Below the pieces are notes generated by a model, which saw only the letters and a list, made by a program, of their open reading frames with translations, searched no databases and was not told the DNA's origin. This document shows positions 1 to 28,570 of a stretch of 64,000 bases of DNA, one piece after another. Each line of letters begins with the position of its first letter. Position 1 is the first letter of the stretch. Origin of the DNA: Pontiella sp. (lineage in GTDB: Bacteria; Verrucomicrobiota; Kiritimatiellia; Kiritimatiellales; Pontiellaceae); the NCBI GenBank assembly GCA_050290185.1, contig JBNKHE010000003.1, forward strand, positions 64,001-128,000, given 5' to 3'. The position numbers and the translations under genes were made by a program.

Positions 1-189
1 TTGCATAAACATCTTGAGCGTATGGCTGGTCAGCATTGCCGTAGTATAGAGAAGGAAGTTCAGGTTTTACTCAGCCTTCTCATCCAGGATTCGGATTATC
101 TGGATCATCTGGAACGCAAGATTCACCGCCGGAGTGCCGGAGAAGAATGGCATGACTCAGATTATCAAGGGTTGTTGGTGCGTTTATAG
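1..189 (+). CDS. C-terminal fragment of an unidentified protein running in from the left edge
   Basis: Open frame from window start to TAG at 187-189, same orientation as downstream locus; no recognisable motif. Confidence 0.4.
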   Translation: MHKHLERMAGQHCRSIEKEVQVLLSLLIQDSDYLDHLERKIHRRSAGEEWHDSDYQGLLVRL

Positions 190-206
190 TTCGGAGATTC
201 ATATAT

Positions 207-293
207 TAAAAGCGATTAGCGAATGGCTTTTGGCATATAGTTTTTAGCCAATAGCCAATAGCCAATAGCCAATAGCCAATAGACATGAGCCAG
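207..293 (+). repeat. 7-bp periodic array upstream of four-helix-bundle gene 1, with perfect (TAGCCAA)x5 at 245-279
   Basis: Units in one register: taaaagc gattagc gaatggc ttttggc atatagt ttttagc caatagc caatagc caatagc caatagc. Confidence 0.95.
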
Positions 294-303
294 CTGATTC
301 ACA

Positions 304-669
304 ATGCGTGACTATACAAAAATTAAAGCCTGGGCCTTGGCAGACGATTTTGCTGTCGAGGTGTATCGGCGTACAGCCAGTTTCCCGTCCGACGAAAAAT
401 ATGCACTGACTTCACAGGTCCGCCGGGCTGCGTATTCTGTAGCTGCCAACTTAGCGGAGGGGGCAGGACGGAGGACAAAAAAGGATTTCGTTCGCTTTCT
501 TGATATGGCGCTGGGGTCGGCCAATGAGGCGACATACTTTATTCATTTATCCCACCGGCTCGCATATCTTGATTCTGGCTCGTTTACTGTTTTAAGGGAT
601 CAGGCCGCATCGGTTAGCAGATGCTTGTCATCCTATATTCGAGCTGTTGAGAAAGATGTTAACCAATAA
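304..669 (+). CDS. Four-helix-bundle protein (TIGR02436 / 23S-rRNA-IVP / Avd-like family)
   Basis: 121 aa with family motifs FPSDEKYALTSQVRRAAYSVAANLAEG, F-x-RFL-x-MALGS-x-x-E. Confidence 0.92.
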   Translation: MRDYTKIKAWALADDFAVEVYRRTASFPSDEKYALTSQVRRAAYSVAANLAEGAGRRTKKDFVRFLDMALGSANEATYFIHLSHRLAYLDSGSFTVLRDQAASVSRCLSSYIRAVEKDVNQ

Positions 670-775
670 CTATTAACTAATAGCTCATAGCCTTTAGCCC
701 GAAGCTAATAGCCACCAGCTAACAGCCATCAGCTAATTACCACCAGCTAACATCTAACAGCCACCGGCCCATAGT
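664..775 (+). repeat. 16-unit degenerate heptamer array (consensus about TAACAGC/TAATAGC) beginning in the stop codon of four-helix-bundle gene 1
   Basis: caataac tattaac taatagc tcatagc ctttagc ccgaagc taatagc caccagc taacagc catcagc taattac caccagc taacatc taacagc caccggc ccatagt. Confidence 0.93.
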
Positions 776-991
776 CAGAGTCTGTATTTTCCCTTGTAAA
801 CCCTGCATTGTTCAAAATTTTCTGAACAAACTGGTTGGTTTTCGGGGCGGGGTTGTGGTTCCATCTTATTTGTACGCATTCGGACTGTCCGAAGGGTGCG
901 CCAGTCATATGAAATCCGCGTGTTCCATGCACCAAACTGGGACGGTTTTGCCGGAGAAACGGCAATCGACCGCGGGCGGCAGCCCGCGCAA

Positions 992-1195
992 ATGAAGCTA
1001 TCAGCCAACCACCGTTAGCTAACAGCTTCCGGTATCTCTGTGTGCGATCTTCGGTTCAGAAAACCCAACTGCTAAAGGCTATCAGCTAATGGCTATGCAT
1101 AACTCCTAAAACTTAACACTTAAAACCGCGAACTCCGCTCGCTTTCAACGGATTCAACGGTAATCAGTCCCGCTAATGGCTAAAAGCTAGGACTC
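992..1195 (+). repeat. Mosaic of short-period repeats (TAxCAGC 7-mers, TAAAACT 7-mers, TTCAACGGA 9-mers)
   Basis: tatcagc caaccac cgttagc taacagc; caactgc taaaggc tatcagc taatggc; taaaact taacact taaaacc; ttcaacgga ttcaacggt; taatggc taaaagc. Confidence 0.8.
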
Positions 1196-1294
1196 TAAAA
1201 TATCATTTCATAGTAGCGTCTACTTTTTTATTGTCTCATTTTAAATATGTGGTAACCATTGTTAATGGAATCTACTGTTTAATCTAGAGATTTA

Positions 1295-2452
1295 ATGAAA
1301 AAGAATGCGCTGATCACATATTTAATATTTATGACTTTAACATTTGTGTTTGCGGTTAGGAGTGCTTGTGCTTCGATCTTCAACGAAAACATCCATGCCA
1401 TGGTTTTGGGGCAGTCCAATATAGATGCCTATGTCGGCCCGGATGGGGTATATCAAGTACCGTGGCCTTCCGAACTGATTTCCGGTGTTACGAATGTGTG
1501 GAATTCCTTCTATGATAACAATGTGATCCGAAACTCGGGTAAATTGCGACGAAGATGGCTGACCGCTCTCGGACCAGATCTGTTCGGTGGATATGGGCTC
1601 TCCAAGTTATATGGCACGGTATACATAACGAAGTTTTCCAAGGGCGGATCCCCCCTGTCCGAATTCCAAACGACAGGAGCCAACTGGCCGCACATGGTGG
1701 CTGCGTACACAAATATGCAAGCCATCACGACAAACGCGGCAGGTCCGGTCGATGTGTTCTGGTGGGGGCAGGGCGAAGCCGACAAAACAAACACGAACTA
1801 TTATAACGATATGACCAACCTGTTCGCCAGTCTGGTATCCACCTTCGGGACAACGAATTCGGTGTTTGTCATTCAGGGGCTTGGTCCGTCCTTCACCAAC
1901 AGTGTTCCGCATTTTGCTTTTATGCAATATGCATCCGAAAATCCCGAAAGAGTGATTTACACGGACAATTCGGATCTCTCTTACTGGGATACTGTGAAAG
2001 TTCACTTCACTGCCGCAAGTCAGGTTGCCAATGGCTACCGTATGGCTGAGGCGACACTGCGCGTGATGGAAAAAACGACATGCACCTCATCGGGAACTCC
2101 CTACATGTGGCTTATCCGTCACGGCATTACTTCCGATTTTGGAATCGGGGAGATGGCTGATCAGGATGGAGATGGGTATAGCACGGCAGATGAATATATT
2201 GCCGATACGGATCCGTTCGACGCATCGGATGTATTTTCTGTTGCACTGGTGCCCTCCTCCCCGGGGGAGGCTTGGTCCATGAAATCTGCTCTTGGCAGGG
2301 AATACGGGGTGGCTACATGTACGAATCTTACTCAAGGTAGTTGGGAAGAGCCATATGTTTGGATTCCTGGAAGCGGCAGTGAAATTACGTTCTCGATAAC
2401 ACCGACGAGCTATCCAAACTTTTTCCAATTCGAGGTCAGACTCGCAGAATGA
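1295..2452 (+). CDS. Secreted sialate O-acetylesterase-like (SASA/CE6, SGNH) esterase with C-terminal DxDGDG/EYIADTDP module
   Basis: Signal peptide; GQSN, KGGS, WWGQGEAD and D-x-x-x-VHF motifs. Confidence 0.8.
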   Translation: MKKNALITYLIFMTLTFVFAVRSACASIFNENIHAMVLGQSNIDAYVGPDGVYQVPWPSELISGVTNVWNSFYDNNVIRNSGKLRRRWLTALGPDLFGGYGLSKLYGTVYITKFSKGGSPLSEFQTTGANWPHMVAAYTNMQAITTNAAGPVDVFWWGQGEADKTNTNYYNDMTNLFASLVSTFGTTNSVFVIQGLGPSFTNSVPHFAFMQYASENPERVIYTDNSDLSYWDTVKVHFTAASQVANGYRMAEATLRVMEKTTCTSSGTPYMWLIRHGITSDFGIGEMADQDGDGYSTADEYIADTDPFDASDVFSVALVPSSPGEAWSMKSALGREYGVATCTNLTQGSWEEPYVWIPGSGSEITFSITPTSYPNFFQFEVRLAE

Positions 2453-2794
2453 CTATGTCATCGTAGGTGTAGGTTTTCCGTTCAAGAAGCCATTCATATC
2501 ATGGCAACATGCAACAGGGTGCGCTAAAGGGAACCATTTCATCGATTGGTTGCGGTGAGTAACCGGTGCGTTCTGTGCAACGCCTTCTGTTCGGATTGCA
2601 TGGATCCTTTTCATTCCCGTCAACCCTTCGTCCAGTATTTCGTGCTCCGATTTAACTAGTAGTGGATGCCTAAGTTTAGAAATCAACTGTTTGCCGGTGG
2701 CTGCGGGGAAAAAACTTCCGACTTCGCAGTCAGCTTAACTTGGAAATCAATGAAACGACTGCCTTGATATCACCTTTAATTCCTTCTGGTCATA

Positions 2795-4093
2795 ATGAAA
2801 AAAGCTCTAGTTAGCCATGCATTGCTGTTCACGAGTGGACGCATGCTGAATCTCCTTCTTGCCTATATCACGGGATTACTTATCGCCAGGTACCTTGGTC
2901 CGGAGGATTACGGGTCATATAGTTTTATTATCAGTCTCGGCACTATATTTCTTGTATTTGTTTCTTTGGGTCTTCCTCAAGTTGTCTTGCGAGAGCTTGC
3001 AAAAGATACTTCGAAAGACAAACACATCTTGGGAGGCGGCATTGTACTGTCGTTTACGAGTGCCATCATTATTGTATTCGGATTGGTGCTGACAATTTGG
3101 CTAACCAATATTCTGTCGCAAACGGAGAAAGTGTTTCTATCCATCTATTGCCTGCGATTAATGACGACTGCATTTCGTAATTTCCACATTTTTAATCAGG
3201 CTAAGTTGCGTGGTGGAAGTGTTGCAATAATAGAAATTAGTCAGTCTCTTGTAACTTTATCTTTAACGATTGTATGTATAGCGCTTAATGGACCCATATG
3301 GTTGCTTCTGTTCATCAACGCCTGTGAACCGGTGTTTATTGCTGTCGGCAATGGATTTTTATTTCTTAAGAAGGGGTTTCCTCCAATAGATTTCCGTCCA
3401 CATTTTGTTTGGAAAACCCTTCTGAAGGATTCGTTGCCGTACATTTTAACCGGCTCTGTTGTAATTATTTACCAGCGGGTTGATCAGGTGATGCTTCGTT
3501 ACCTCTCGGAAACTATAAATGTAGGCTACTATGCCAGTTCTGCTAAGCTGACAGAGATGGCCAGCATGGTTCCAACAGTTATCGGCGTTGCACTTTTTCC
3601 TATCATGGTCAAAAAATGTGAGGCAGATCCTGATAGTCCTTTTGTTGGGAGATTCTTCGATATCGTTATTTGGACAGCCGTGCCAATTACGGTGTTCTTG
3701 CTGGTGTTTGCCAAGAAGATCGTGCTGGTTTTATATGGGGATGCTTACCTGCCTGCCGTAAGTGCATTGCAAATCATGGTATGGAAAGGGGTGGTCAGGG
3801 GGATTGATGCCTCGATTAGTCAATGGGCTCTACTTAAGAACCTTCAACGTTATCTGCCAATACGTCAGGTTTGGGGTGGAATAATCAATGTAATTTTGAA
3901 TTTTCTGCTCATTCCCCGCTACGGAATTTCAGGGGCCGCGTTGGCCACGATTGCTTCGGTGGTGCTCGTATTGGTGGCGACTGGCTTTGTAAAAGAATTG
4001 CGACCCAGTATCGGGTTGGCGGTGAAATCATTGCTTTTGGGGCCATATCGCTTGACTGGTGAATTGATTGGATTCGTCAAGAGCAAGATATGA
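2795..4093 (+). CDS. wzx: Wzx-type polysaccharide flippase
   Basis: Multi-TM; ARYLGPEDYG, IYQRVDQVML, LNFLLIPRYGISGAALAT motifs. Confidence 0.9.
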   Translation: MKKALVSHALLFTSGRMLNLLLAYITGLLIARYLGPEDYGSYSFIISLGTIFLVFVSLGLPQVVLRELAKDTSKDKHILGGGIVLSFTSAIIIVFGLVLTIWLTNILSQTEKVFLSIYCLRLMTTAFRNFHIFNQAKLRGGSVAIIEISQSLVTLSLTIVCIALNGPIWLLLFINACEPVFIAVGNGFLFLKKGFPPIDFRPHFVWKTLLKDSLPYILTGSVVIIYQRVDQVMLRYLSETINVGYYASSAKLTEMASMVPTVIGVALFPIMVKKCEADPDSPFVGRFFDIVIWTAVPITVFLLVFAKKIVLVLYGDAYLPAVSALQIMVWKGVVRGIDASISQWALLKNLQRYLPIRQVWGGIINVILNFLLIPRYGISGAALATIASVVLVLVATGFVKELRPSIGLAVKSLLLGPYRLTGELIGFVKSKI

Positions 4094-12008: not shown

Positions 12009-13319
12009 GTGAAAATCATTCAGGCTCACAACTATTACCTGCATGCTGGTGGCGAGGATGCGGTGGTTGCCGCGGAGCGGCAAATGCTTGAGATTCAAGG
12101 GAATATCGTTGTTCCTTACTATAAGAGTAATGAAGATATTGCGGCTTCTAGCAATAAGCTAATAGCTGTTGGCCAACTGCTAAAGGCTTCCCTTAGGACT
12201 ATCTGGAACCACCAGACGTACCGAGAGTTTCAGAAGCTACTTCAAAGTGAAAAGCCGGATGTGGTGCATTGCCACAACACCTTTCCGCTGATCTCTCCGT
12301 CGATCTACTGGGCCTGCGCGAAGGAAAAAGTTCCCGTTGTCCAAACTCTCCACAACTATAGACTCTTGTGCTTAAACGCTTTTTTGTTTCGAACCACGAA
12401 GAGTCACGAAAATAAGAACCTCTGCGACTCTGCGGCTTTGAGCGAGAATAAATCTGGTATATGCGAATTGTGCGTTAATAAATCCTTCAAGTGGCCCGGT
12501 ATCCGGTATCGCTGTTATCGCGGATCGTTGCCGGGGTCGCTCGTCGTTACGCTGATGCTTTTTGTCCACAAGCTGCGGGGAACTTGGACCAAAAAGGTAA
12601 CGGCCTACATTGCCCTGACCGAGTTTCAAAAACGGAAAATGGTGGAAGAGGGACTTCCGGGGGATAAAATTTTGGTGAAATCCAACTTCATCGACGATTC
12701 ATCGATGAAAGAGCCATTAGCCTCCAATGACTCTGTGCCCTCTGTGGTGGATAAACCGTACTGCATATTTGTGGGAAGGTTGAGCCCTGAAAAGGGGTGC
12801 GATGTACTGCTAAAAGCGTGGGCGCGTTTCGGGGAAATGCCAATAGCTAACGATCATCAGCCCCAGCTGCTTATCGCTGGAGACGGTCCCGAACGCGAAT
12901 CTCTCGAAAAGCTGTCTGCCGACCTCTGTCTGACGACCTCTGTCACATTTCTCGGCAAACAGTCAAAGGGAAGTGTACTTTCTTTAATGCGCAACGCGCA
13001 GTTTCTCGCGCTTCCCTCCGTTTGGTACGAAGGGTTTCCAATGACGATTGTGGAAGCATTTTCGTGCGGAACGCCTGTTGTTGCCTCCAATGACGGAGGA
13101 ATGCTGGATGTGATTGACGAAGGAAAAACCGGTTTGCTTTTTTCCATGGGCGATGTAAATGCGCTGGCGAACACGCTCCTATGGGCGTTTGAACATCTCG
13201 AAGAGATGGCATCAATGAGTGCTGCCGCTCACAAGGATTTTAGCGAGAAGTTTTCGTCGGACATCAACTATGGAGAGCTCATAGGGATCTATGAACGGGC
13301 GTTGGGCATCAGGTGTTAG
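12009..13319 (+). CDS. Glycosyltransferase family 4 with repeat-derived insertions
   Basis: HNYY..GGED, HCHNTFPLISPS, FVGRLSPEKG, PSVWYEGFPMTIVEAF. Confidence 0.92.
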   Translation: MKIIQAHNYYLHAGGEDAVVAAERQMLEIQGNIVVPYYKSNEDIAASSNKLIAVGQLLKASLRTIWNHQTYREFQKLLQSEKPDVVHCHNTFPLISPSIYWACAKEKVPVVQTLHNYRLLCLNAFLFRTTKSHENKNLCDSAALSENKSGICELCVNKSFKWPGIRYRCYRGSLPGSLVVTLMLFVHKLRGTWTKKVTAYIALTEFQKRKMVEEGLPGDKILVKSNFIDDSSMKEPLASNDSVPSVVDKPYCIFVGRLSPEKGCDVLLKAWARFGEMPIANDHQPQLLIAGDGPERESLEKLSADLCLTTSVTFLGKQSKGSVLSLMRNAQFLALPSVWYEGFPMTIVEAFSCGTPVVASNDGGMLDVIDEGKTGLLFSMGDVNALANTLLWAFEHLEEMASMSAAAHKDFSEKFSSDINYGELIGIYERALGIRC

Positions 13320-13329
13320 GATTTCGGTC

Positions 13330-15753
13330 ATGACTGTACTTTTCTTGTATATCATCACATTGTGCTCATTCACCTTCTATGGCGTGGTGGGCGAGGACAA
13401 GACATGGTTGCTGGCGCCTTTGTTTCTTTTCAGCTATGCGGCAATTACGATTGCCTTGCTGAAAAGAGCATCCTCCTTCGCTCAAGCTTCAGCGGACAGA
13501 TTTGGCATGGGGCATGGCAATGAGAAGCTAAGAGCTAATAGCCAACAGCCAACAGCCGGAGCATTGCTTATCCTTTTTCTCCTATGGGGAATAGCAATGA
13601 TCCCCCAGGCAACGGTGCCTTTCGAGTCAAAGCTGGTGATGCTGTTCATCGGCGGGGTGGTGGGGGCTTATCTCGTATGGGGCGGGGAACTGACGACGTT
13701 CAAGGACAACCGGCTTCTGTTGGGCTTCCTGATCTTTGTCGTGATGGGACTGGCGCTGTATGGCCTGATCATCTATTTCCGTTGCCCGGACAGGATCCTA
13801 TGGACGGAACGGTATGCCGACTATCCCGGTCGCTTGGCGTCGACCTATATCTGCCCGAATCACTTTGCCCATTTGATGCAGATGCTGATGCCGTTCTGCG
13901 CGGCGTTGCTGTTCATTCCCCAGACGGGCATCTTTCTGCGCCTGCTGGCGGGATATAGTTTGCTGGTGTTTCTTCCGCCCTTGTTCCTGACCGAATCGCG
14001 CGCAGGGTGGCTGGGTTCGATTGTCGGGGTGGGGGTCGTAGCCTGCCTGATGGCGCTGCGCCGCAGCAAAAAGTTGTTCCTGCTCCTGGTGATCTTCGTC
14101 CCGTTGTGTTCAACGCTCATCCTGTTCGCGGGATGGCGGTTTTCCGAAACCTTCCACCGCCGGGTCACACCGGTCGTGGAATTCCTGAAGTATCAGGGTG
14201 AAGAGGGCGTTGGCAGCGAGTCGAAGGATTTCCGGCCGCAGACCTGGATGGATACGATCGATATGGTCAAGGAGGCCCCGCTGATCGGTTTCGGACCGGG
14301 GAACTACCGGTATACTTTTCCAGAGCACCGCAATCGCTTCAAAGGACGCCAGGTTGTTACCGGCCACCCGCACAATGAATATCTGGAACTGATCGCGGAT
14401 TATGGGCTGATTGGATTTGCCCTGTTTGCCCTGGCCTGGATCTATGGTTTGATCCGGATCCTGATTGCGTCGTTGAAGTCGGAGGAAGTGCGCCATGCCT
14501 TCATCGGCTTTGCCTTTGTCGGCACCGCCGCTGGAACGATGGTCCACTCCTTCTTCGACTTCGAGATGCATGTGTATCCCAACGCGCTTGTTTTCGCGTT
14601 GCTGGCCGCCTTGGCCTGGGGACCGTTGGCCGCGCAGAAGGCAAAAGGCGTCAGGCGTCGGGCCCGGGACTCCAGAGACCATGAACCGCAAACGGCCAAC
14701 TCCAAACTTCACGCTGCATTTTCACACAGAGATAGCAGAGATAACGGAGGGCAGAAGTCAGCAGCCAGCTCCGAACTGTTGGTTCAAAATGATTCCCCAA
14801 CAATCAGCAACGTTCAACGTTCAACATTTAACGTGCAGCGTTTAGCAACATGGCTCCTTGCCATCGGCTACCTGTCGTTAACCGTTCTCTGTCTTCAGAC
14901 CATGTCGTCCGCCTTCATCCGTGCTATGGCGGATAAGAAGGTGGAGACATTGGTCACTCGCCATGCACCCAGCTCCAAGCTCCATGCACAGCATCTTTAC
15001 GAGCTGTCAGCTCGGATAGATGCTGCGAACTGGCGGGCGTACAAGGGGATGGCGGATTTACTCTCTAATCAGCGTTACTATTCGCTCGATATGGAGGAGA
15101 AGGTCCAGCTGGCCGAGGAGGAGCGTGGTTGGTACGAGAAGACCTATGTGCAGAATCCGAAGGATCCGGAGCTCATCTCTGCCTACGGAAAATGTCTCAT
15201 TTTTCTCGGAAATGCCGAGAGCATGGGACATAGGGCAGGGAGTCGGGTGGAAGAAATATCACGCAGCGATAGCGGAGACAGCGGAGAGGATAATGCAAAA
15301 CAAACGCTCTCTGTTAACGCTGTGCGAGATAATGATTCATTTACACCTGCAGAACTAATCGATCATGGACTGGAGCTGCTCCGCGAAGCGTGCAGCTACC
15401 GCCCATTCAACGATGTCTACTGGTGGACGCTGGGCGTGGAGTTGCGTAAGCTGGGTCGCTACGAAGAAGCGTTGGACGTATTTAAAAAGGCGCAGTCGAT
15501 CCGCCGTACGCCAACGACGGTCGCCAATATAAAGTGGATCGAGAAGCAGATAGCCCTTCGGCTTCACTCAGGGCAGGCAGGGGACGGGAGAAAGGACGCA
15601 GGAGCCAGGGAGCAGGAATCTGAGCCGGCAGAAAGGGAACCTCAAACCGCAAACCCCAAACCGCAAACCTCAACGAACTTCGTCCTCCCCGACCCGACCA
15701 ACGCAGCGGCTGATCCGGGGTTGATGAAGCTGCTTGACCAAATGGAAGAATAG
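13330..15753 (+). CDS. O-antigen ligase (WaaL/Wzy_C) family protein with C-terminal TPR-like region; several repeat-derived insertions
   Basis: TYICPNHFA, LTESRAGWLG, GFGPGNY, HPHNEYLELIADYGLIG, VHSFFDF; helical repeats at C-terminus; start uncertain. Confidence 0.85.
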   Translation: MTVLFLYIITLCSFTFYGVVGEDKTWLLAPLFLFSYAAITIALLKRASSFAQASADRFGMGHGNEKLRANSQQPTAGALLILFLLWGIAMIPQATVPFESKLVMLFIGGVVGAYLVWGGELTTFKDNRLLLGFLIFVVMGLALYGLIIYFRCPDRILWTERYADYPGRLASTYICPNHFAHLMQMLMPFCAALLFIPQTGIFLRLLAGYSLLVFLPPLFLTESRAGWLGSIVGVGVVACLMALRRSKKLFLLLVIFVPLCSTLILFAGWRFSETFHRRVTPVVEFLKYQGEEGVGSESKDFRPQTWMDTIDMVKEAPLIGFGPGNYRYTFPEHRNRFKGRQVVTGHPHNEYLELIADYGLIGFALFALAWIYGLIRILIASLKSEEVRHAFIGFAFVGTAAGTMVHSFFDFEMHVYPNALVFALLAALAWGPLAAQKAKGVRRRARDSRDHEPQTANSKLHAAFSHRDSRDNGGQKSAASSELLVQNDSPTISNVQRSTFNVQRLATWLLAIGYLSLTVLCLQTMSSAFIRAMADKKVETLVTRHAPSSKLHAQHLYELSARIDAANWRAYKGMADLLSNQRYYSLDMEEKVQLAEEERGWYEKTYVQNPKDPELISAYGKCLIFLGNAESMGHRAGSRVEEISRSDSGDSGEDNAKQTLSVNAVRDNDSFTPAELIDHGLELLREACSYRPFNDVYWWTLGVELRKLGRYEEALDVFKKAQSIRRTPTTVANIKWIEKQIALRLHSGQAGDGRKDAGAREQESEPAEREPQTANPKPQTSTNFVLPDPTNAAADPGLMKLLDQMEE

Positions 15754-15941
15754 GAAGCTTACCTCAGATCTTGCAGAACAACGTAGATAAGATCTCCCGC
15801 GGAGATAGCGGCTTCCGGCTCATGGAGGCTACACCCTAGAGGGAGCAAGCAACGACCTTTAAAGCGATACTAAGTACCATGTTTTTACTACCTCTTATCT
15901 TCATCGCTGACTCCGTTGACTTTGTGTGATATTTATCCGAA

Positions 15942-17051
15942 ATGTTAATGCACTTTACCATAATCACCCCATCCTTCAACCAGCTCGGCTATCTCAAACG
16001 GTGTGTGGCTTCAGTCGCTGATCAAGTGACTGAAAGCATGGAACATGGAGCGGGGCGCATAGAGGTGTGCCACCATGTTCAGGACGGTGGTTCGACGGAT
16101 GGTGCCCGCGAATGGCTGGAGTGTTATGCGAACGAAGTCCGCGAGCAAAATACAGAGGACACAGGACAGAGGACGGAGGACTGCTCCCCTAATGCCGAAT
16201 GTCTAGCGCCTGGTGCCTACACTTTCACGTATGCAAGTGCACCGGATAACGGGATGTATGATGCGATCAACAAAGGTGTGGCCTTTGCGTTAAATCGGTC
16301 TACGACCTCGTTGAATTCGTTAAAGCAGGCTTCGCCTTCGTTAAATCCGTGCCCGAACGATTTCAACGTCTTGAACCTTCAACATTCAACGAAACCTCGC
16401 GACAGCGTGATCGCCTGGCTGAACTGCGACGAACAGTATCTGCCAGGAACCCTGCATAAGGTGGCGGTTTTTTTTGAGCAGCATCCGGAGGTGGATATTG
16501 TGTTCGGTGGCATGCTGATGGTGGATGAGGCTGGAAAGCTGCTGGCTTGCCGCAAGGCCATGCCGATGCGGCGGTTGTTCCTTGAGGCGTCTTATTTATA
16601 TAACTATTCCTGTGCGATGTTTTTTCGTCGATCGGCGTGGGAGAAGTTGGGCGGATTCGATTCAGCCTATCGCAATGCCGGGGATGAAGAGCTGGTGCGA
16701 CGAGCGATGAAGCTGGGGATGAAGACTGCTGTAGTGGATGGTTATCTTTCGGTCTTTACCTATGCAGGGCACAACCTAAGTTCGGAGGGGACGTCCGCCG
16801 TTCAGGAGCATGAGCGACTGAAACAATCAGAATCCCGGGCAAGCCGGTGGCTCCGTTTACCGATCAATCTGGCCCGGCTGGCGGAAAAGTGGATGCGCGG
16901 AGGACTACATGAGCGCGGGGCTTTAGTCTTTGAAATCTACACGGACCCATTGGAAGCGCGCTCCCTTTTTGAAGAGGATAACCCAAGTTGCCACTGGCCT
17001 GGTGAGGTGAAGCCGTATCTGCTCAATCATAGATTGAGCGATAGGCGTTAG
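15942..17051 (+). CDS. Glycosyltransferase family 2 with repeat-derived insertions
   Basis: IITPSFNQ, QDGGSTDG, GMYDAINKG, WLNCDEQYLPG. Confidence 0.9.
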   Translation: MLMHFTIITPSFNQLGYLKRCVASVADQVTESMEHGAGRIEVCHHVQDGGSTDGAREWLECYANEVREQNTEDTGQRTEDCSPNAECLAPGAYTFTYASAPDNGMYDAINKGVAFALNRSTTSLNSLKQASPSLNPCPNDFNVLNLQHSTKPRDSVIAWLNCDEQYLPGTLHKVAVFFEQHPEVDIVFGGMLMVDEAGKLLACRKAMPMRRLFLEASYLYNYSCAMFFRRSAWEKLGGFDSAYRNAGDEELVRRAMKLGMKTAVVDGYLSVFTYAGHNLSSEGTSAVQEHERLKQSESRASRWLRLPINLARLAEKWMRGGLHERGALVFEIYTDPLEARSLFEEDNPSCHWPGEVKPYLLNHRLSDRR

Positions 17052-17067
17052 GTATAGGTGTTGGGTC
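17034..17067 (+). repeat. G/T-rich degenerate heptamers (TTAGGTA/TTGGGT) upstream of four-helix-bundle gene 2
   Basis: ttgagcg ataggcg ttaggta taggtg ttgggtc; approximately the reverse complement of the downstream CCCAATA/CCTAA units. Confidence 0.65.
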
Positions 17068-17128
17068 GCGGATGACAGATGGAAAACGTTGAGTCTTTAG
17101 AGTGATATTATCTTGAGCGGGATTTGTG

Positions 17129-17500
17129 ATGGGCGAGCAAGGTTTTAGGCAACTGCGTGTTTGGCAGGAGGCAAAGGCATTGGCTGTCGACGTATACTTG
17201 TTAATCCGAAAATCACTTGCCCTGGACAAGGATTGGGGCCTGAAGGATCAGATGCAGCGGTCTGCCGTATCTATTCCTTCCAATATCGCCGAGGGTGATG
17301 CCCGAAAATCCAACAAGGATTCTATTCGCTTCTTTCACATTGCTTTGGGATCTGCAGCAGAGCTAGCTACTCAGTTGGAGATAGCACTTGAACTTGGGTT
17401 CATCGATGAACTGCCATGCCATGGAATCATTAATCGACTAGATCAGTTGTCGAAAAGCCTTGGCGCTCTCGTCAAGGGGCGGCAACAGCCCAATACCTAA
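17129..17500 (+). CDS. Four-helix-bundle protein (TIGR02436 / Avd-like), second paralog
   Basis: FRQLRVWQEAK, DWGLKDQMQRSAVSIPSNIAEG, RFFHIALGSAAELATQL. Confidence 0.93.
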   Translation: MGEQGFRQLRVWQEAKALAVDVYLLIRKSLALDKDWGLKDQMQRSAVSIPSNIAEGDARKSNKDSIRFFHIALGSAAELATQLEIALELGFIDELPCHGIINRLDQLSKSLGALVKGRQQPNT

Positions 17501-17595
17501 AACCTACATATAATGTCAAAATCCAAACACCGAGCACCTCTTAATACCCAATACACTATGCCTGTATCCCAATACCCAATACCCAATACCCAATG
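17489..17595 (+). repeat. CCCAATA-family heptamer arrays starting at the end of four-helix-bundle gene 2; (CCCAATA)x3+CCCAATG at 17568-17595
   Basis: cccaata cctaaaa ccta; taataccc aatac; cccaata cccaata cccaata cccaatg. Confidence 0.9.
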
Positions 17596-18826
17596 TCCGA
17601 CGCGACACCGTCGCGTGGCTATCGATCTGGTTCCGATTCGTGTCGGCGAGGGCGGGACGGGGAGTGGGATCTGGACCTACGCCCGCGAGCTGCTCCTTGC
17701 GATGGATCGGTCGGAGGTCCATGAACTGGAAATCCTTGCGCTGGTCAATGAAGGCCAAGTGCCGTTTTTGTCGGATTTGAAACATATTCGGTTGGTGCGC
17801 TTTCGCGGGGGAGGAAAGAGCATCATCCGGCGATTGTTTTGGGTCCATCTGCAACTGCCGCTCCATTGCTTGTTCAGACGGGTGGATGTGCTCCATAAAC
17901 TGGCGACCGATACGCCGCTGTTTTGTCACTCCAAACGGGTGACCACCATCCACGATTTTTATTACGAGTTCTTGATGGAGCAGCGATCCAGGGAAAGCAT
18001 CCGGCTCTACGAACGTGTGGAGAGCGCTTATTTTTCGATGGTGACAAAAGCCTGCTTCAAGAAATCAAACGCCATTATTACCGTATCGAACGCCACCCGG
18101 GAAGAAGCGGTTCGACGCTATCCCGGTTCCAAAGATCGCATTGCCGTGATTCATCATGGGGCGCCGTACTTGCAGCCGATAGCCGATAGCCGACAGCCAA
18201 GAGCCAAAGAGTCATCCGCACTTCCGTCATCAACCATCAACCATCAATCATCAACGGATATTAAACGTGACGCGTTCAATATCCTCTGCGTCGCCAAGTT
18301 CATGGAACACAAGGGACAGCACCTTCTGCTCAAGGCGTTTGAGCGGTTGCTTGCAGAACACCCTGAGTGTGCGGACACGACCAGACTGACGCTCCGCGGT
18401 TTTCATAATGATTCTGACTATTACGAGGCGATTTGCCGAAAGATCAACGATAGCCGATATGCTTCGAATATTGATCTTGTGGCCTTCGATCCCAAGGACA
18501 CCATCGGGGACATATACCGTAATGCGGATCTGGTGGTTCTGCTTTCGGGTTATGAGGGATTTGGTCTGCCGGTTTTGGAGGCCCAGTCGATGGGCGTGCC
18601 CGTGTTGTGTTCCGACCTGCCGGTCTTGCGGGAGGTCGGTGGAGATGGAGCTGTATATGTAGCGAGGGACGATATAGAACGCGTGGCTAGAGCTATGCAT
18701 CGGTTTATTTTCGATGTCGATTATTATGATGCCCTGCGGAATGAAGCCTCTGGAAATATCCAGCGGTTTTCATGGAACTTAGCCGCCGAGAAGACCTTGA
18801 ATGCCTATGCAATCTGTTTCGCTTAG
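17513..18826 (+). CDS. Glycosyltransferase family 4 (mannosyltransferase-like); start uncertain (17513/17558/17615)
   Basis: VTTIHD, IITVSNAT, HKGQ, SGYEGFGLPVLEAQSMGVPV. Confidence 0.9.
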   Translation: MSKSKHRAPLNTQYTMPVSQYPIPNTQCPTRHRRVAIDLVPIRVGEGGTGSGIWTYARELLLAMDRSEVHELEILALVNEGQVPFLSDLKHIRLVRFRGGGKSIIRRLFWVHLQLPLHCLFRRVDVLHKLATDTPLFCHSKRVTTIHDFYYEFLMEQRSRESIRLYERVESAYFSMVTKACFKKSNAIITVSNATREEAVRRYPGSKDRIAVIHHGAPYLQPIADSRQPRAKESSALPSSTINHQSSTDIKRDAFNILCVAKFMEHKGQHLLLKAFERLLAEHPECADTTRLTLRGFHNDSDYYEAICRKINDSRYASNIDLVAFDPKDTIGDIYRNADLVVLLSGYEGFGLPVLEAQSMGVPVLCSDLPVLREVGGDGAVYVARDDIERVARAMHRFIFDVDYYDALRNEASGNIQRFSWNLAAEKTLNAYAICFA

Positions 18827-21161
18827 TTGGTTTATGTTCTGCCTGATCATTGCAGGGCTCCTTGTGGAACCTTCCGCAGCGGCCCGCACGGTCGGATTGG
18901 CTTCGATGCAGAATTTTGAGGATCTTCCAGTGATAGAAGAGGATGTCGATGTCTTTCAGGTTTCAAGTCATGACCGAACCGGCGCAAACGATGACGGGTT
19001 CAACGGGACTTATTCGAGCCTTTACCGGGATGAAGAGGGCGATTATGTGCTGTTCGACGAAATAGGCGCCGGATGCATTACGCGCATGTGGATGACTTTT
19101 TCGACGGCCAACCTCAATCCGACCAACCACATCCGATTCTATTTCGATGAGGATGCCGAACCGCGCATCGATGTCTCCCTTCAGGATTTCTTTCATGGGA
19201 CCACTGCTCCTTTTCTGAGTCCGCTGGTGGGGGATCGGTTGGTATCGAGTGGCGGTTATTATTGCTATCTGCCTTTCCCGTTCGCCCGTCGCTGCCGGAT
19301 CGAGATGGCGCACAAACCGTATTTCTACAACATCACCTGTCAGCGTTTTGCATCAACCAACGGCGTGGCTACCTGGACAGGGCTGGAGGAGAGTGCGGGT
19401 GTTCGCTCAATGTGGGAACACGTTGGCAGCGATCCAAAGCCGACGAACGGGAATGTTCAGGTCGATGGTATGTTATCGATTCCTGCCGGAACCACCGGCA
19501 CGGTGTTTTCCGTGCTGGGTGCCGGAGCGGTGGCTGGGCTGTTGCTGGATATCGAGCCGCACTCGGCAGAGGTGCTCACCAATGTCTGGATCGACATGGT
19601 GTGGGATGGCGAAGCAACGCCGCAGGTTTCGGCCCCGCTGGGCGAGTTTTTCGGATGTCGTTTCGGCGAGACCAATCTAACGGCACTTCCGGTTGGCATG
19701 AACACGAATACACCGTATTACTGCTGGTTTCCCATGCCGTTCTGGAGCTCCGCTCATATCGAGGTCGTGAATCATTCTTCGGTCGATATCACTAATCTGA
19801 CGTTTGAGGTCCAGTACCATAATCGGGCGTATGATGCATTGCGCACCGGTTGGTTCCATGCGGTGGCCCGCTCGAAGAATATCGTGCAGAGCGACGGAAA
19901 TGATTATGTTCTATTGGAGACCAATGGATGGGGCAAGGTGGTGGGTGTGGTGCTTTCAGTACGAAACAGGAGCACGGATCCATTGGGCTATTTGGAAGGC
20001 GATGAGCGTATCTATATTGATGGAAGCTCAACACCCCAGCTCTATGGAACGGGAACGGAGGATTTTTTCAACGGGGGATGGTACTTTAACCAGGGGCCAT
20101 TCTCTCTTCCCGTCCACGGGAACCCGATGCGTAAGCACGAGTGGAGACCGGATTGGAATGTGCCCCCCTACATCTCCAACAACTTTACCGCGGCGTATCG
20201 GTTCTTTCTTGCAGACTGCCTTTCTTTTCGCTCATCCATCCGGTTGGGGATGGAGCACGGCTATAATAATTCCCAGAAAGGAGAGTATTCCAGCGTGGTG
20301 TACTACTACCTGCTTCCATCACGCACAGGAATGGTTTTACGTACAGCACTGGATGTGGGGAATATATTCTCCGAGTCTGATGCAGACTATGTAAGCTCGG
20401 AAAGTATTCTGGTAACCAACAGCTGGCGATACGAAGGCGATGCTGACAACGATGTGGTTGTGGATGACGGTCGGATCATCTCGGATTCTTCAAGCTTTGC
20501 GGTGTCCCTATCGAGCACGAACATGGGACTGTTGATTCGCCGGCGGGCGGATGCGGTGCCTGGTCGTCAGCATGTGAAAGTATATGTGGATGAGGCGTTG
20601 GTCAGTGATTGGTATACTGCAGATTGTAATTTCACTAATTTAAACAGACGATGGTTTGATGCGGAATTGCAGATTCCGGCAGCGTACACCGCCGGAAAAA
20701 CATCGGTAACGGTCCGGTTGGAGAAGGATCTTTCATCTGCGGGACTTTGGAGTGAGTATCGATATTGGGTCTATAGTCTGGAGCCTTTGCTGCCCACAGG
20801 AGATCTGGATGCCGACGGCTTGCCGGATGAGTGGGAGATTTCATATTTCGACAATATTCTGGAGGCGGTTCCGGGGGAAGATGGCGACGGTGACGCAATG
20901 GGGAATTTGGCGGAGTATATAGCGGGAACCGATCCCTTGGATTCCGTATCGAACTTTCGCCTTCGAACCGATGCCGAAGCACTCTCTTTTCTTGCGCAAA
21001 CCGGACGGTCCTATACCCTATGGTATTCGTCTGATTTGCTTGCGGGTGAGTGGAGCGCGGCGGCGACCAACTTGCAAGGGAATGGAGTAATTGTTTTCTG
21101 GCCGTATCCCAAAAACGGAACAAACGGATTTTATCGAGCGGACGTACAGTTACAATGGTAG
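18801..21161 (+). CDS. Secreted DUF2961 / GH172-like glycoside hydrolase with C-terminal DxDGD/EYIAGTDP module
   Basis: Signal peptide; SSHDRTGANDDG, GAGCITRMW, WFPMPF, YLEGDE, GTGTEDFFNGGWYF. Confidence 0.8.
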   Translation: MPMQSVSLSWFMFCLIIAGLLVEPSAAARTVGLASMQNFEDLPVIEEDVDVFQVSSHDRTGANDDGFNGTYSSLYRDEEGDYVLFDEIGAGCITRMWMTFSTANLNPTNHIRFYFDEDAEPRIDVSLQDFFHGTTAPFLSPLVGDRLVSSGGYYCYLPFPFARRCRIEMAHKPYFYNITCQRFASTNGVATWTGLEESAGVRSMWEHVGSDPKPTNGNVQVDGMLSIPAGTTGTVFSVLGAGAVAGLLLDIEPHSAEVLTNVWIDMVWDGEATPQVSAPLGEFFGCRFGETNLTALPVGMNTNTPYYCWFPMPFWSSAHIEVVNHSSVDITNLTFEVQYHNRAYDALRTGWFHAVARSKNIVQSDGNDYVLLETNGWGKVVGVVLSVRNRSTDPLGYLEGDERIYIDGSSTPQLYGTGTEDFFNGGWYFNQGPFSLPVHGNPMRKHEWRPDWNVPPYISNNFTAAYRFFLADCLSFRSSIRLGMEHGYNNSQKGEYSSVVYYYLLPSRTGMVLRTALDVGNIFSESDADYVSSESILVTNSWRYEGDADNDVVVDDGRIISDSSSFAVSLSSTNMGLLIRRRADAVPGRQHVKVYVDEALVSDWYTADCNFTNLNRRWFDAELQIPAAYTAGKTSVTVRLEKDLSSAGLWSEYRYWVYSLEPLLPTGDLDADGLPDEWEISYFDNILEAVPGEDGDGDAMGNLAEYIAGTDPLDSVSNFRLRTDAEALSFLAQTGRSYTLWYSSDLLAGEWSAAATNLQGNGVIVFWPYPKNGTNGFYRADVQLQW

Positions 21162-21231
21162 CGAGCTTGAATATTCGATTGGGTGTACGTTGATAATAGA
21201 TGGCTTGGCACCGTATTTTCTGGAGTGGTCA

Positions 21232-23706
21232 ATGGGTACTTTTTTAATCAAATGGGGAAAATGGTTTACACCGGTCCTGGGATGCATTGCGGTCTTCCTG
21301 CTGCTGCACTACCTGCAAAAGATGGGGGGCTACCAATTGCCCGCGTGGATAGTGGGTACAATGGGCGCGGTGAGTGGAATTACCCTGCTCGGGTATCTAC
21401 TGCAACTACATGTATTGAACCGGATCGGGGGGGTGTTTCTTCTGGTAGTGGCCGTGGTATGTTTGGTGGGTATGTTGCTGCCGGCCGAAACCATAGGCGA
21501 ATATCCGCACAAAGCATCCGCAGTGGTTGCCCATGATTTCGACGCAGCCTGGAAAACGGTCTATGGCCATGACCTATTCAAGGAGTTCAGCCTGCACCGG
21601 AACCTGATGCAGTATGCCAAGAGCTTGTCCAGTTTCGATATTCACCGGGCGGGTCAGATGGGGCTGTTCGGTATTTTTGGCCTTGCGATGGGAATCTGCT
21701 TTCTCTTTCCCATAGACCCCTCCTCCCTCCGATGGCGCTATTCCAGTCGGGTTCTACTGCTGTGTGTTGCGGGAGCGCTATGGTCCTTGCTGCTGGAACT
21801 GTTGCAGACGCTATCACCAACGCGTGAAGTCTCTTTTGGGGGTTTTCTTGAGAGCACAATCGGGGTCTTCGCGGGGACGCTGCTGTTTGCTCTATGCAAC
21901 ACGGTCTATGTCTCTCGAAAAAGGATGCTTGAGGATCGGCGCTTCAACGTGCTCGGCGTAGGTATTGATGCCGTGGATATGGAGGACTGTCTTCAATTAT
22001 TTCAGGAGATCATCGGCCAACAGGCACTAGGCAATGGGCATAAGGCATTAGGAGAGAGGGCTAACAGCCAAGAGCCAAGAGCTGACAGCTCATACTACTA
22101 TCCCTCACAGGAGGAAACCGGGGGGTTGGATCTCGGAAGCGCGGCGCAGACTCCTAAATCGGAAATCGGAAATCGGAAATCGGAAATTATTCTATCTTCC
22201 GGTCTCAAAACCCGACTGCCGGCCATGACCACTGCGATGGGCGTGGCGGGGATCGTGGAGTCGCGCCGCAACCAGAAGCTCCAGCGCATCCTGAACGAAT
22301 CGGTGTTGAACACGCCTGACGGCATGCCGTTGGTCTGGTTGGGCAAATTGTTCGGCTATCGAAATGTCGAGCGCGTATATGGTCCCGATCTGCTGCGAGA
22401 TGCCTGTGCCTATGGGGTAGATAAAGGATGGCGGCACTATTTCTGGGGGGCTGCGCCGGGGATTGTCGAGAAACTAAAAGTAGTGCTGGAAGAGAAACAT
22501 CCCCTGATCCAGATTTCAGGGATCTGCTGTCCACCGTTTCGTCCGTTGACTCAGGAGGAAGAGGATGCGCTGGTGGAGGAAGTGAATTCAGCCGATACCG
22601 ATATTTTCTGGATCGGGATCAGCACGCCGAAGCAACTTTATTTCATGGATCATATCCGCGATCGGCTGAACTGCAAAGTCATCTGTCCGGTGGGATATGC
22701 CTTCGATGTGAATGCCGGGGTGGAGAAGGATGCGCCGGACTGGATCAAGTATGCCGGGCTTCAATGGCTGCACCGCGGGATCAAGCAACCGCGCCTCTGG
22801 AAACGCTATCTGCCGGACAATCCCGCGTTTGTACTCAAGGTCTTTTCCCAACTGCTGCACCTGAAACGGTTTACCATGTTCGTGCATGAACGCCCGATTG
22901 CCCCCGTAACCGATGCCGAAGGGTTCCCTCGTTTTCCGGCCGGTGCAGTGGCGCTGTCGGCCATGAGCATGCGTGGAGCGCGTGATCGCGTCGCACACTG
23001 GATCGAATCGGGGAAAAAACACTACGTCAATATCTGTACGGCGGATACCGTTGTGCAGTGCTACGACCGGCCCGACCTGGCAAAGATTGTGATGAATGCC
23101 GGGATGGCTACAACCGACGGTATGCCACTGGTTTGGCTTGCCCATCATTTTGGTTACACGGATGCGACGCGGGTCTATGGGCCGGATCTCATGCTTGAGC
23201 TTTGTGCCTTGAGCGAAATGAAGGGCTATGCCCATTATTTCTACGGGGCGACTGATGAGGTGCTGGAGCAATTACGGATAAACCTGCTGGAAAAGTATCC
23301 GCAACTGAAGATTGCGGGCATGTATGCTCCGCCTTTCCGTCCGCTCACCGATGCCGAGAAGGAGGACGTGGCGGAACGGATCAATGCCGCGAAGCCGGAC
23401 ATCGTCTGGTGCGGGCTGGGAACGCCCAAGCAGGACTACTGGGTGGCGGAATTCCGCCCGCGCCTGAATGCAGCCGCCATTCTGGCCGTGGGTGCTGCCT
23501 TCAACTTTCACGCCGGGCATGTGACACAGGCCCCGCGCTGGATGATGAAGTCCGGTTTGGAATGGCTTTTCCGCCTATGCGTTGAACCGCGTCGTCTCTG
23601 GCGCCGGTACATCATTGGCAATCCTCGTTTCGTTTGCCAAACCCTAAAGCAGTGGATCCGTGCGCGCCGAATTCGGAAACGGCTTGCCGCGATCGAAACT
23701 CCATAG
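21232..23706 (+). CDS. VanZ-like membrane domain fused to two WecB/TagA/CpsF (GT26) glycosyltransferase domains
   Basis: ELLQTLSPTRE (VanZ-like); two copies of DGMPLVWL..RVYGPDL..PPFRPLT..TPKQ..PRxLWxRY. Confidence 0.88.
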   Translation: MGTFLIKWGKWFTPVLGCIAVFLLLHYLQKMGGYQLPAWIVGTMGAVSGITLLGYLLQLHVLNRIGGVFLLVVAVVCLVGMLLPAETIGEYPHKASAVVAHDFDAAWKTVYGHDLFKEFSLHRNLMQYAKSLSSFDIHRAGQMGLFGIFGLAMGICFLFPIDPSSLRWRYSSRVLLLCVAGALWSLLLELLQTLSPTREVSFGGFLESTIGVFAGTLLFALCNTVYVSRKRMLEDRRFNVLGVGIDAVDMEDCLQLFQEIIGQQALGNGHKALGERANSQEPRADSSYYYPSQEETGGLDLGSAAQTPKSEIGNRKSEIILSSGLKTRLPAMTTAMGVAGIVESRRNQKLQRILNESVLNTPDGMPLVWLGKLFGYRNVERVYGPDLLRDACAYGVDKGWRHYFWGAAPGIVEKLKVVLEEKHPLIQISGICCPPFRPLTQEEEDALVEEVNSADTDIFWIGISTPKQLYFMDHIRDRLNCKVICPVGYAFDVNAGVEKDAPDWIKYAGLQWLHRGIKQPRLWKRYLPDNPAFVLKVFSQLLHLKRFTMFVHERPIAPVTDAEGFPRFPAGAVALSAMSMRGARDRVAHWIESGKKHYVNICTADTVVQCYDRPDLAKIVMNAGMATTDGMPLVWLAHHFGYTDATRVYGPDLMLELCALSEMKGYAHYFYGATDEVLEQLRINLLEKYPQLKIAGMYAPPFRPLTDAEKEDVAERINAAKPDIVWCGLGTPKQDYWVAEFRPRLNAAAILAVGAAFNFHAGHVTQAPRWMMKSGLEWLFRLCVEPRRLWRRYIIGNPRFVCQTLKQWIRARRIRKRLAAIETP
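22156..22187 (+). repeat. Perfect (AAATCGG)x4+AAAT tract inside the GT26 gene
   Basis: Direct reading; encodes KSEIGNRKSEI. Confidence 0.95.
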
Positions 23707-24048
23707 CCCGCAGATGGTCGCAGAAGATCGCGGATACACTTTACACGGTCTCCGATTCTGAGGTAAGAGCCATCAGGCTCAGACTCGTACGGGAATCAAC
23801 GAAGCTGCCGGAGGGAAACCTTCCTTGATTCATCAACCTCTGATTGCTCGGCTAGCTCGGCGTGACCAAACCGATGGAATGGACATTATCACACAGAGAT
23901 AGCGGAGATAACGGAGGTTTGTTACTGCCCGTCTCTACTTGCTCCGTTCGCTCTGCTTGTGTATAGGCTGTTGCCGACTCGCCCTGAAATGCAGTATTTC
24001 AGGGCTTTTTTGTTTACATCTCCTCAGCGGACCAACTAGCGTTTAGAT

Positions 24049-25845: not shown

Positions 25846-25929
25846 TGATTGATGGGTTTTGCCGGGAATCGCTATTCCGAACAACAATCATTCAACAATT
25901 TAGCAACAAATTGAGCGGAGCGAAAGAAT

Positions 25930-26928: not shown

Positions 26929-26964
26929 AACTAGTAAAACATACTAGTAGTACGTATTTTATGG

Positions 26965-28416: not shown

Positions 28417-28570
28417 TTGTTCGTTGATTGTTGTTAGGTTTTCGCGAAGCTTTGCTTGCATTCTGCGCATTATCCGTGAAACCCGTCACTTGACAACGCC
28501 CAACAGATGCACGGACTTCCCAGCCCCGGCAACTATCATTCATCAATCAACAACCGATGCCCGTAGCACC

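What the first reader, a model, noticed from the sequence alone, without database searches (positions are those of the whole stretch)
207..775. Four-helix-bundle gene 1 cassette: five perfect heptamers upstream, sixteen degenerate ones from the stop codon
Seen: about 12 units in one 7-bp register upstream, with (TAGCCAA)x5 perfect and ending 24 nt before the ATG. Sixteen units downstream keep register with no indels while the first four positions vary and the last three (mostly AGC) are conserved. Inference: strict spacing with a conserved triplet fits a periodic binding surface better than neutral slippage. Five perfect copies matching a pentamer is suggestive only. The most 5' units (aatggct, tttggca) resemble the reverse complement, so the flanks could pair.
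Basis: partly seen in the sequence, partly recalled or inferred. Interest (0 to 1): 0.8.

Follow-up and report, generated by a model that had tools for sequence, protein, structure and literature searches.

The report
Heptamer-armed four-helix-bundle gene cassette
A small gene of unknown function sits between two mirror-image runs of 7-base repeats, a package that comes and goes between genes in many bacteria, and its protein, predicted to be a five-part ring, likely binds those repeats, which would link an orphan protein family to long-unexplained bacterial repeats.

Summary
ORF 304-669 is a PF05635/TIGR02436 four-helix-bundle gene with 12 upstream (207-290) and 16 downstream (664-775) heptamers in register. 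It is one copy of a widespread cassette: 384 of 522 family genes carry such arrays, and 275 of 295 two-armed cases are inverted. The scan found this layout before on other DNA (230 notes); in print I found only the Coxiella rRNA case. The five perfect copies are incidental: a related strain lacks them, and exactly five perfect upstream copies occur in 3 of 522 genes. The real 5' arm is 207-248. Family-wide, arms peak at five units, nearly always keep one C:G position, and show no G·U over A·C excess (334 vs 353; terminator control 30 vs 7). This favours sequence read-out on DNA by the predicted pentamer over an RNA stem. A residue-to-base code got only weak support. At the gmd-fcl junction of relatives, empty sites, unrelated cassettes, a decayed copy and a gene-less hairpin all occur. 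Binding and the route of spread are inferred, not shown.

The parts
207..248 (+). 5' arm: six degenerate heptamers of the reverse-complement type (T-R-G-C core)
   Evidence: Sequence. Predicted duplex with the downstream arm is -27.4 kcal/mol, with the adjacent perfect run -22.2. The family's 5' arms are reverse complements of the 3' arms.
245..290 (+). Perfect TAGCCAA x5 run plus two degenerate units, in the orientation of the 3' arm; likely a recent expansion that makes a local hairpin with the 5' arm
   Evidence: TRF. A related-strain contig in run X2 joins 227 to 288 through 11 other letters, 49 nt or seven units shorter. 35 of 274 cassettes have both orientations upstream.
304..669 (+). 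Four-helix-bundle gene, 121 aa (TIGR02436 / PF05635), predicted pentamer by homology
   Evidence: TIGR02436 110 bits, cut-off 24. PF05635 112 bits, cut-off 33.8. AlphaFold2 pLDDT 95.5 with four helices. Foldseek to 2gsc TM 0.92, rmsd 1.1; Avd 4dwl TM 0.78.
664..775 (+). 3' arm: 16 gap-free degenerate heptamers, consensus YANYAGC, starting at the stop codon, with 14- and 28-bp duplications

Best explanation
This is one copy of a widespread insertion cassette, a PF05635 four-helix-bundle gene bracketed by inverted arrays of its own 7-bp word, and the encoded protein, predicted to be a pentameric ring, likely binds those arrays on DNA at about one unit per subunit. Shown: the layout, the inversion, inheritance of word with protein, the modal five units, the strand-symmetric constraint, and filled, empty and decayed states at one junction in relatives. 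Inferred: because the 5' arm ends a median 16 nt before the start codon and the 3' arm begins at the stop, binding would repress the cassette's own expression and mark both ends of the unit. The cassette encodes no recognised transposase, so spread would rely on host recombination or on larger elements. Slippage and duplication lengthen the arms. Here that likely produced the perfect TAGCCAA run and the 16-unit 3' arm, and elsewhere it would leave gene-less heptamer hairpins.
For: (1) Arrays flank 384 of 522 family genes, against 5 of 522 mid-gene and 20 of 336 distal control windows (control windows were shorter than the downstream ones). 275 of 295 two-armed cases are inverted, and 53 of 60 in new loci. 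(2) Word similarity rises with protein identity, from 0.39 below 40% to 0.63 above 80%. All words share one architecture (phasing score 1.19 vs 0.92 ± 0.02 with columns permuted). (3) 260 of 264 main-clade cassettes keep a C at 75% or more of 3'-arm units (cluster-weighted 0.99; T 0.83 and A 0.78 at similar abundance). The 69 others give 0.72. (4) No RNA-pairing bias: G·U 334 vs A·C 353 in 257 duplexes; tolerated vs non-tolerated transitions 0.100 vs 0.097 and 0.065 vs 0.061. Terminator-like hairpins of this genome give 30 vs 7. (5) Units per arm peak at five: 3' arm 14, 50, 84, 36, 19 for 3-7 units of 271; 5' arm 26, 49, 81, 38, 14 of 283. Planted arrays were recovered correctly. The mode stays five when relatives' words are used, 243 genes. 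(6) The fold matches five-chain 2gsc and Avd. All five Avd protomers contact one RNA stem-loop, and the same residues from different protomers read flipped-out bases (10.1101/2023.10.23.563531, passages). (7) gmd-fcl junction: 18 filled loci in five protein clusters at 22-46% mutual identity with different words, plus empty, decayed and gene-less states.
Against: No binding was measured, and the only characterised relative binds RNA. A dsDNA array of 35 bp could not circle a small ring, so single-stranded or hairpin DNA would be needed (inference). No robust residue-to-base code was found. Y67 failed independent pairs. E/D103 with T gave p 0.004 post hoc, 21 of 39 vs 5 of 19 in the hold-out (p 0.044), but was not significant by independent pairs in the hold-out or the pooled set. 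The peak at five is flatter without self-selection and also fits an RNase III stem length (28 bp in Coxiella). Symmetric mismatches would also arise if the arms were neutral. 138 of 522 genes had no detected array. This locus's uneven conservation fits duplication alone. The tRNA control for G·U was uninformative, 7 vs 6.
Confidence: 0.45

Rival explanations
1. An mRNA version of the rRNA intervening sequence: the arms pair as an RNA stem that RNase III cuts, or that the pentamer binds, so the cassette removes or insulates itself from the host transcript.
For: The Coxiella 23S IVS has the same gene, heptamers before it, a 28-bp stem and RNase III excision (PMC4990558, passages). Median best duplex is 26 Watson-Crick pairs in 32. 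There is a small unit-order complementarity (+0.71, 143 vs 95, p 5e-6). Avd binds an RNA stem-loop.
Against: No G·U excess over A·C, unlike terminator-like hairpins. Here the 5' arm is predicted to pair locally and the cassette folds no better than shuffles.
Confidence: 0.25
2. The arrays are slippage-born satellites with no function. They travel with a dispensable gene, and inversion arises by template switching between the flanks.
For: Higher-order periods and p 0.21 under a duplication null. The perfect run is strain-specific. The genome has 53 period-7 arrays, most away from its six family genes. Neutral arms give symmetric mismatches.
Against: It does not explain the shared architecture across phyla, the C:G kept with fixed polarity, the peak at five units, or arms that stay tied to the gene's start and stop.
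Confidence: 0.15
3. A non-autonomous retroelement: the Avd-like pentamer holds the cassette RNA and recruits a reverse transcriptase encoded elsewhere, which copies and re-inserts it.
For: Fold shared with Avd (NF033474 at 23.6 bits). Unrelated cassettes occupy one junction without a transposase.
Against: Only three fragmentary RT matches on two tiny contigs, none on this contig. No RNA-pairing bias. The near-identical multicopy case examined was carried by an IS982-type element.
Confidence: 0.08

Closest known systems
S23p-encoding intervening sequence of 23S rRNA (Coxiella burnetii helix 45; Leptospira), PMC4990558 (passages read)
   Same: Same protein family. Tandem heptamers lie just before the start codon and vary in copy number between strains. 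Complementary ends bracket the ORF.
   Different: Not in rRNA: it lies among protein genes at the head of a polysaccharide cluster. The arms are longer. A long-range RNA stem is not predicted here, and RNase III cutting is untested.
Avd of diversity-generating retroelements (4dwl, 8ub7; 10.1101/2023.10.23.563531 and PMC6182149, passages read)
   Same: Same fold. A pentamer that reads bases with the same residues from several protomers, at a site close to its own gene.
   Different: 12% identity and below the Avd cut-off. No RT or template-repeat system was seen nearby. Avd's site is a stem-loop, not a heptamer array.
Omega (ParB) and parS heptads of plasmid pSM19035 (PMC9499535, passages read)
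   Same: Contiguous 7-bp repeats overlapping promoter regions, one protein unit per heptad, with four or more needed for full effect.
   Different: Omega is a ribbon-helix-helix dimer, with no fold relation. No ParA partner was looked for or seen. Here the arrays are inverted around the gene and the word differs by cassette.
Intergenic heptamer repeats: TAACTGA of Beggiatoaceae (PMC4679880, passages read); heptameric simple repeats (PMC4692102, start of abstract in listing); cyanobacterial STRR and Mrazek 2007 (recalled)
   Same: 7-bp tandem units between genes, often just before start codons, function unexplained.
   Different: The Beggiatoaceae main text has no occurrence of 'four helix', 'intervening' or 'S23'. 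Here the repeats are tied, inverted, to a protein family.

Membership tests
TIGR02436 / PF05635 four-helix-bundle protein | Score above the curated cut-offs | tested here: met
   110.3 vs 24 bits; 112 vs 33.8
TIGR02436 / PF05635 four-helix-bundle protein | Four long helices, Xcc0516 fold | tested here: met
   TM 0.92, rmsd 1.1 to 2gsc
TIGR02436 / PF05635 four-helix-bundle protein | Homopentamer | not testable with these tools
   The complex predictor takes at most four copies. Inferred from five-chain entries 2gsc and 2rld and PMC4990558.
S23p-type 23S rRNA intervening sequence | Located inside an rRNA gene | tested here: not met
   No rRNA match in 1-3000. Neighbours are protein genes.
S23p-type 23S rRNA intervening sequence | ORF in the loop of a long terminal RNA stem | tested here: inconclusive
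   Arms can form a -27.4 kcal/mol duplex, but the ensemble pairs the 5' arm locally
S23p-type 23S rRNA intervening sequence | Tandem heptamers before the ORF with variable copy number | tested here: met
   compare
S23p-type 23S rRNA intervening sequence | Excision by RNase III | not testable with these tools
   No RNA run was listed
DGR Avd | NF033474 above cut-off | tested here: not met
   23.6 vs 80 bits
DGR Avd | Linked reverse transcriptase | tested here: not met
   RT fragments only on C64 and C159, none on C3 (genome 95.5% complete)
Omega/parS heptad system | Ribbon-helix-helix binder | tested here: not met
   The cassette gene is a four-helix bundle. The upstream ORF has only a weak FitA-like RHH hit, E 0.094.
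Insertion sequence / MITE | Transposase encoded in the unit | tested here: not met
   The only ORF between the arms is PF05635
Insertion sequence / MITE | Target-site duplication at defined ends | not tested
   No near-identical empty site of this locus was found
Phase-variable simple sequence repeat | Copy number of the perfect run varies within the population | tested here: inconclusive
   Only assembled contigs were available. Depth over the run is about 2-8 times the flank, but other organisms' contigs also lie on it.

The most novel reading that the evidence does not exclude
PF05635 pentamers are sequence-specific readers of their own five-unit heptamer arms, with specificity set by a few residues (candidates: helix-4 position 103 with helix-1 position 12, and R/K56). 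Together they form a transposase-free class of mobile cassette that spans many phyla, includes the rRNA IVS as a special case, and seeds many of the unexplained heptamer repeats of bacterial genomes.
Probability: 0.3. Interest if true: 0.85.

Novelty: new variant of a known kind. Interest (0 to 1): 0.57.

Why it matters
The protein family has solved structures but no known function, and heptamer repeats in bacteria are an old puzzle. The cassette gives each a testable partner: a natural library of more than 300 protein-word pairs with a predicted stoichiometry (five units), polarity (G towards the gene) and substrate (DNA rather than RNA stem). These cassettes crowd surface-polysaccharide clusters and rewrite gene ends, so they may affect operon evolution. 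This locus itself is an ordinary member with an expanded run.

Tried and rejected
'Five perfect copies equals the pentamer site' was rejected. A residue-to-base code was tried four ways. (a) Leave-cluster-out prediction: only position 2 clearly beat the null, through one deep clade split; position 3 did so at 50% clusters but not at 42%. (b) Y67 with T failed. (c) Co-change in 126 pairs gave one hit above the overall 95% null level, E31 with position 2 (z 5.6), plus W10 (4.6), not followed up. (d) The pre-registered hold-out replicated in direction only, and the phase-free scan mostly returned clade markers. The conserved C after phasing (0.80) equals the permuted null (0.81), so only the phase-free count is used. 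A first terminator control had n=8 and was useless; the tRNA control was uninformative. The multicopy case G173 looked like autonomous spread but is cargo of an IS982-type element. No relative was found in viral contigs with the single-protein query. Rfam gave nothing meaningful. The promoter-like site at 162-190 is at chance level, 3 found vs 2.2 expected. No RNA holder was listed. The other strain's 3' arm remains unread. No complex prediction was run. The 14-bit word scan is loose (91 of 547 hits) and is used only for the nearest relatives.

Full report
Observation. The window is G000:C3:64001-128000; close homologs are named from Kiritimatiellae and Pontiella. Twelve heptamers run in one register from 207 to 290 and sixteen from 664 to 775 without gaps, around ORF 304-669. 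TAGCCAA x5 at 245-279 is perfect and ends 24 nt before the ATG. Both arrays score far above 300 shuffles. The downstream consensus is YANYAGC, so positions 1, 2 and 4 are also constrained. Its unevenness beats a uniform-mutation null (p 0.006) but not a duplication null (p 0.21-0.29).

The protein. It is TIGR02436/PF05635 well above cut-off and below the Avd cut-off. The model has four helices at pLDDT 95.5. It matches Xcc0516 (2gsc, TM 0.92), BT_0352 (2rld) and, more weakly, Avd (4dwl, TM 0.78). A pentamer is inferred from these, not tested.

Anatomy of this copy. The upstream array has two parts: six reverse-complement-type units (207-248), then the perfect run in the orientation of the 3' arm. 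They share a register because the word is nearly palindromic (read from the sequence). As RNA, the 5' part is predicted to pair with the perfect run, not the 3' arm, although the distal duplex is slightly stronger in isolation (-27.4 vs -22.2 kcal/mol). In run X2, one 176-nt contig of a related strain (depth 6.5) joins 227 to 288 through 11 other letters. It is exactly seven units shorter and lacks the perfect run (the four runs are one study, and X2 may be a source of this DNA). Depth over the run is about 2-8 times the flank. X1's values fit six units better than five, but other organisms' contigs lie there too, so copy number is unresolved. Exactly five perfect upstream copies occur in 3 of 522 family genes and four or more in 18; both orientations upstream occur in 35 of 274. 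The perfect five is therefore most likely a recent expansion.

The family. The genome has six PF05635 matches; five show mirror-image heptamer arms by inspection, each with a different word. It has 53 period-7 arrays against 1-4 for periods 4, 5, 8, 10 and 11 (26, 36 and 19 for periods 6, 9 and 12). From 600 loci I took 575 distinct genes, kept 548 with over 75% profile coverage, and 522 of these had both flanks. 384 have an array on at least one side and 286 on both, against 5 of 522 mid-gene and 20 of 336 distal windows. 275 of 295 two-armed cases are inverted; 21 with poorly matching arms were dropped, leaving 274. A hold-out of 111 loci gave 98 new genes, 60 two-armed, 53 inverted, 59 kept. 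The sample is biased towards PVC-group relatives of this protein, and kin are not independent.

Signs of constraint. Word similarity follows protein identity, and words share an order of letters beyond a column-permuted null. Phase-free, 260 of 264 main-clade cassettes keep a C in the 3' arm (G in the 5' arm), against 54 of 69 others. Arms peak at five units when scored with the opposite arm's profile, and planted controls were recovered. The mode stays five with relatives' profiles, though with many low counts from word drift. The 5' arm ends a median 16 nt before the start and the 3' arm begins a median 3 nt after the stop.

DNA or RNA. Arm duplexes contain 334 G·U and 353 A·C juxtapositions, and profile-level transitions are symmetric. 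Terminator-like hairpins give 30 vs 7, while a crude tRNA control gave 7 vs 6. So I find no selection for RNA pairing. A small order-specific complementarity remains, as expected if arms are copied from each other or pair weakly. Symmetry fits DNA-level read-out, DNA hairpins or neutrality; the conserved C:G and the five-unit peak argue against neutrality.

A code. An earlier scan note claimed a predictable amino-acid-to-base code. I could not establish one. Y67 failed. E/D103 with T after the conserved C passed independent pairs post hoc (9.5 vs 0.5 of 21, p 0.004). After pre-registration the hold-out gave 21 of 39 vs 5 of 19 (p 0.044), K/R12 gave 22 of 41 vs 3 of 17 (p 0.011), and R/K56 with C gave 43 of 45 vs 11 of 14 (p 0.08). 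Independent pairs were not significant in the hold-out or pooled data. This protein has S103 and L12 and an even C/T split there, in line with the trend. It remains a lead.

Mobility. At the gmd-fcl junction, 18 filled loci fall into five protein clusters at 22-46% mutual identity, with different words; most were found through the cassette gene. Searching 20 genomes with gmd itself gave 15 copies at 84% identity or more. Six are filled, four empty (8-19 nt to the fcl match), one has a deleted gene with its arms, one a gene-less heptamer hairpin, two are followed by another gene and one is cut by a contig end (duplicates matched by coordinates). No transposase lies in the unit, and no RT is on this contig. 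The one high-copy case examined rides in an IS982-type element. How the cassette inserts is unknown.

What is known. PMC4990558 (passages) reports the Coxiella 23S IVS with this gene, variable heptamers before it and RNase III excision. The Avd papers (passages) show a pentamer reading an RNA stem-loop. PMC9499535 (passages) gives the heptad-array precedent. 10.1101/2024.02.27.582315 (passages) finds the domain in CPR rRNA inserts and does not mention repeats. PMC4679880 (passages) describes intergenic heptamers without this family. Five searches listed no paper describing the cassette outside rRNA; subscription papers and supplements were not searched. The scan itself has 230 notes on this layout in at least 222 genomes; these are leads, not support.

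Verdict. A real, ordinary member of a widespread and apparently undescribed variant of the IVS-type element. It is not an rRNA IVS, a DGR or an IS by membership tests. It most likely works as a self-recognising cassette whose ring-shaped protein binds about five heptamers per arm on DNA (0.45); RNA-stem processing (0.25), neutral satellites (0.15) and RT-driven spread (0.08) remain. Interest 0.57.

Noticed in passing
window 13523-28444: At least 14 further heptamer arrays with other words lie in this polysaccharide cluster. Many fall inside long ORFs (O-antigen ligase 13291-15750, WecG 21091-23703, 24049-25842), while 30-64 kb has almost none.
   Followed up: partly
window 17126-17598: A second PF05635 cassette with its own word. 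Two more lie just upstream of the window on C3, at the gmd-fcl junction and between two sulfate-activation-like genes (names from my reading of the sequence).
   Followed up: partly
window 1-189 and G000:C3 about 63770-63950: A small ORF with a weak FitA-like ribbon-helix-helix hit (E 0.094) is preceded by a different dispersed repeat family with copies on C2, C3, C6 and C11.
   Followed up: partly
window 990-1200: By eye, scattered degenerate units of several heptamer words, including this cassette's, lie in the long gene-free stretch; possibly remains of older cassettes.
   Followed up: no
window 810-842: A 33-nt segment is shared with contigs of other organisms in runs X2, X3 and X4, followed by similar G-rich sequence; no Rfam match.
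   Followed up: no
L436, L442, L447, L451, L734-L752 (G173): An IS982-type element carries a PF05635 gene as cargo. 18 of 23 loci compared match at 96-100%, many with stops in the gene.
   Followed up: partly
L008, L003 (gmd-fcl junction): The 5' end of fcl is extended by heptamer units. In L008 these are of other cassettes' words, suggesting successive occupation of one site.
   Followed up: partly
L390-L400 (G116): Eight PF05635 matches in one small genome all contain stop codons, i.e. mass decay.
   Followed up: no
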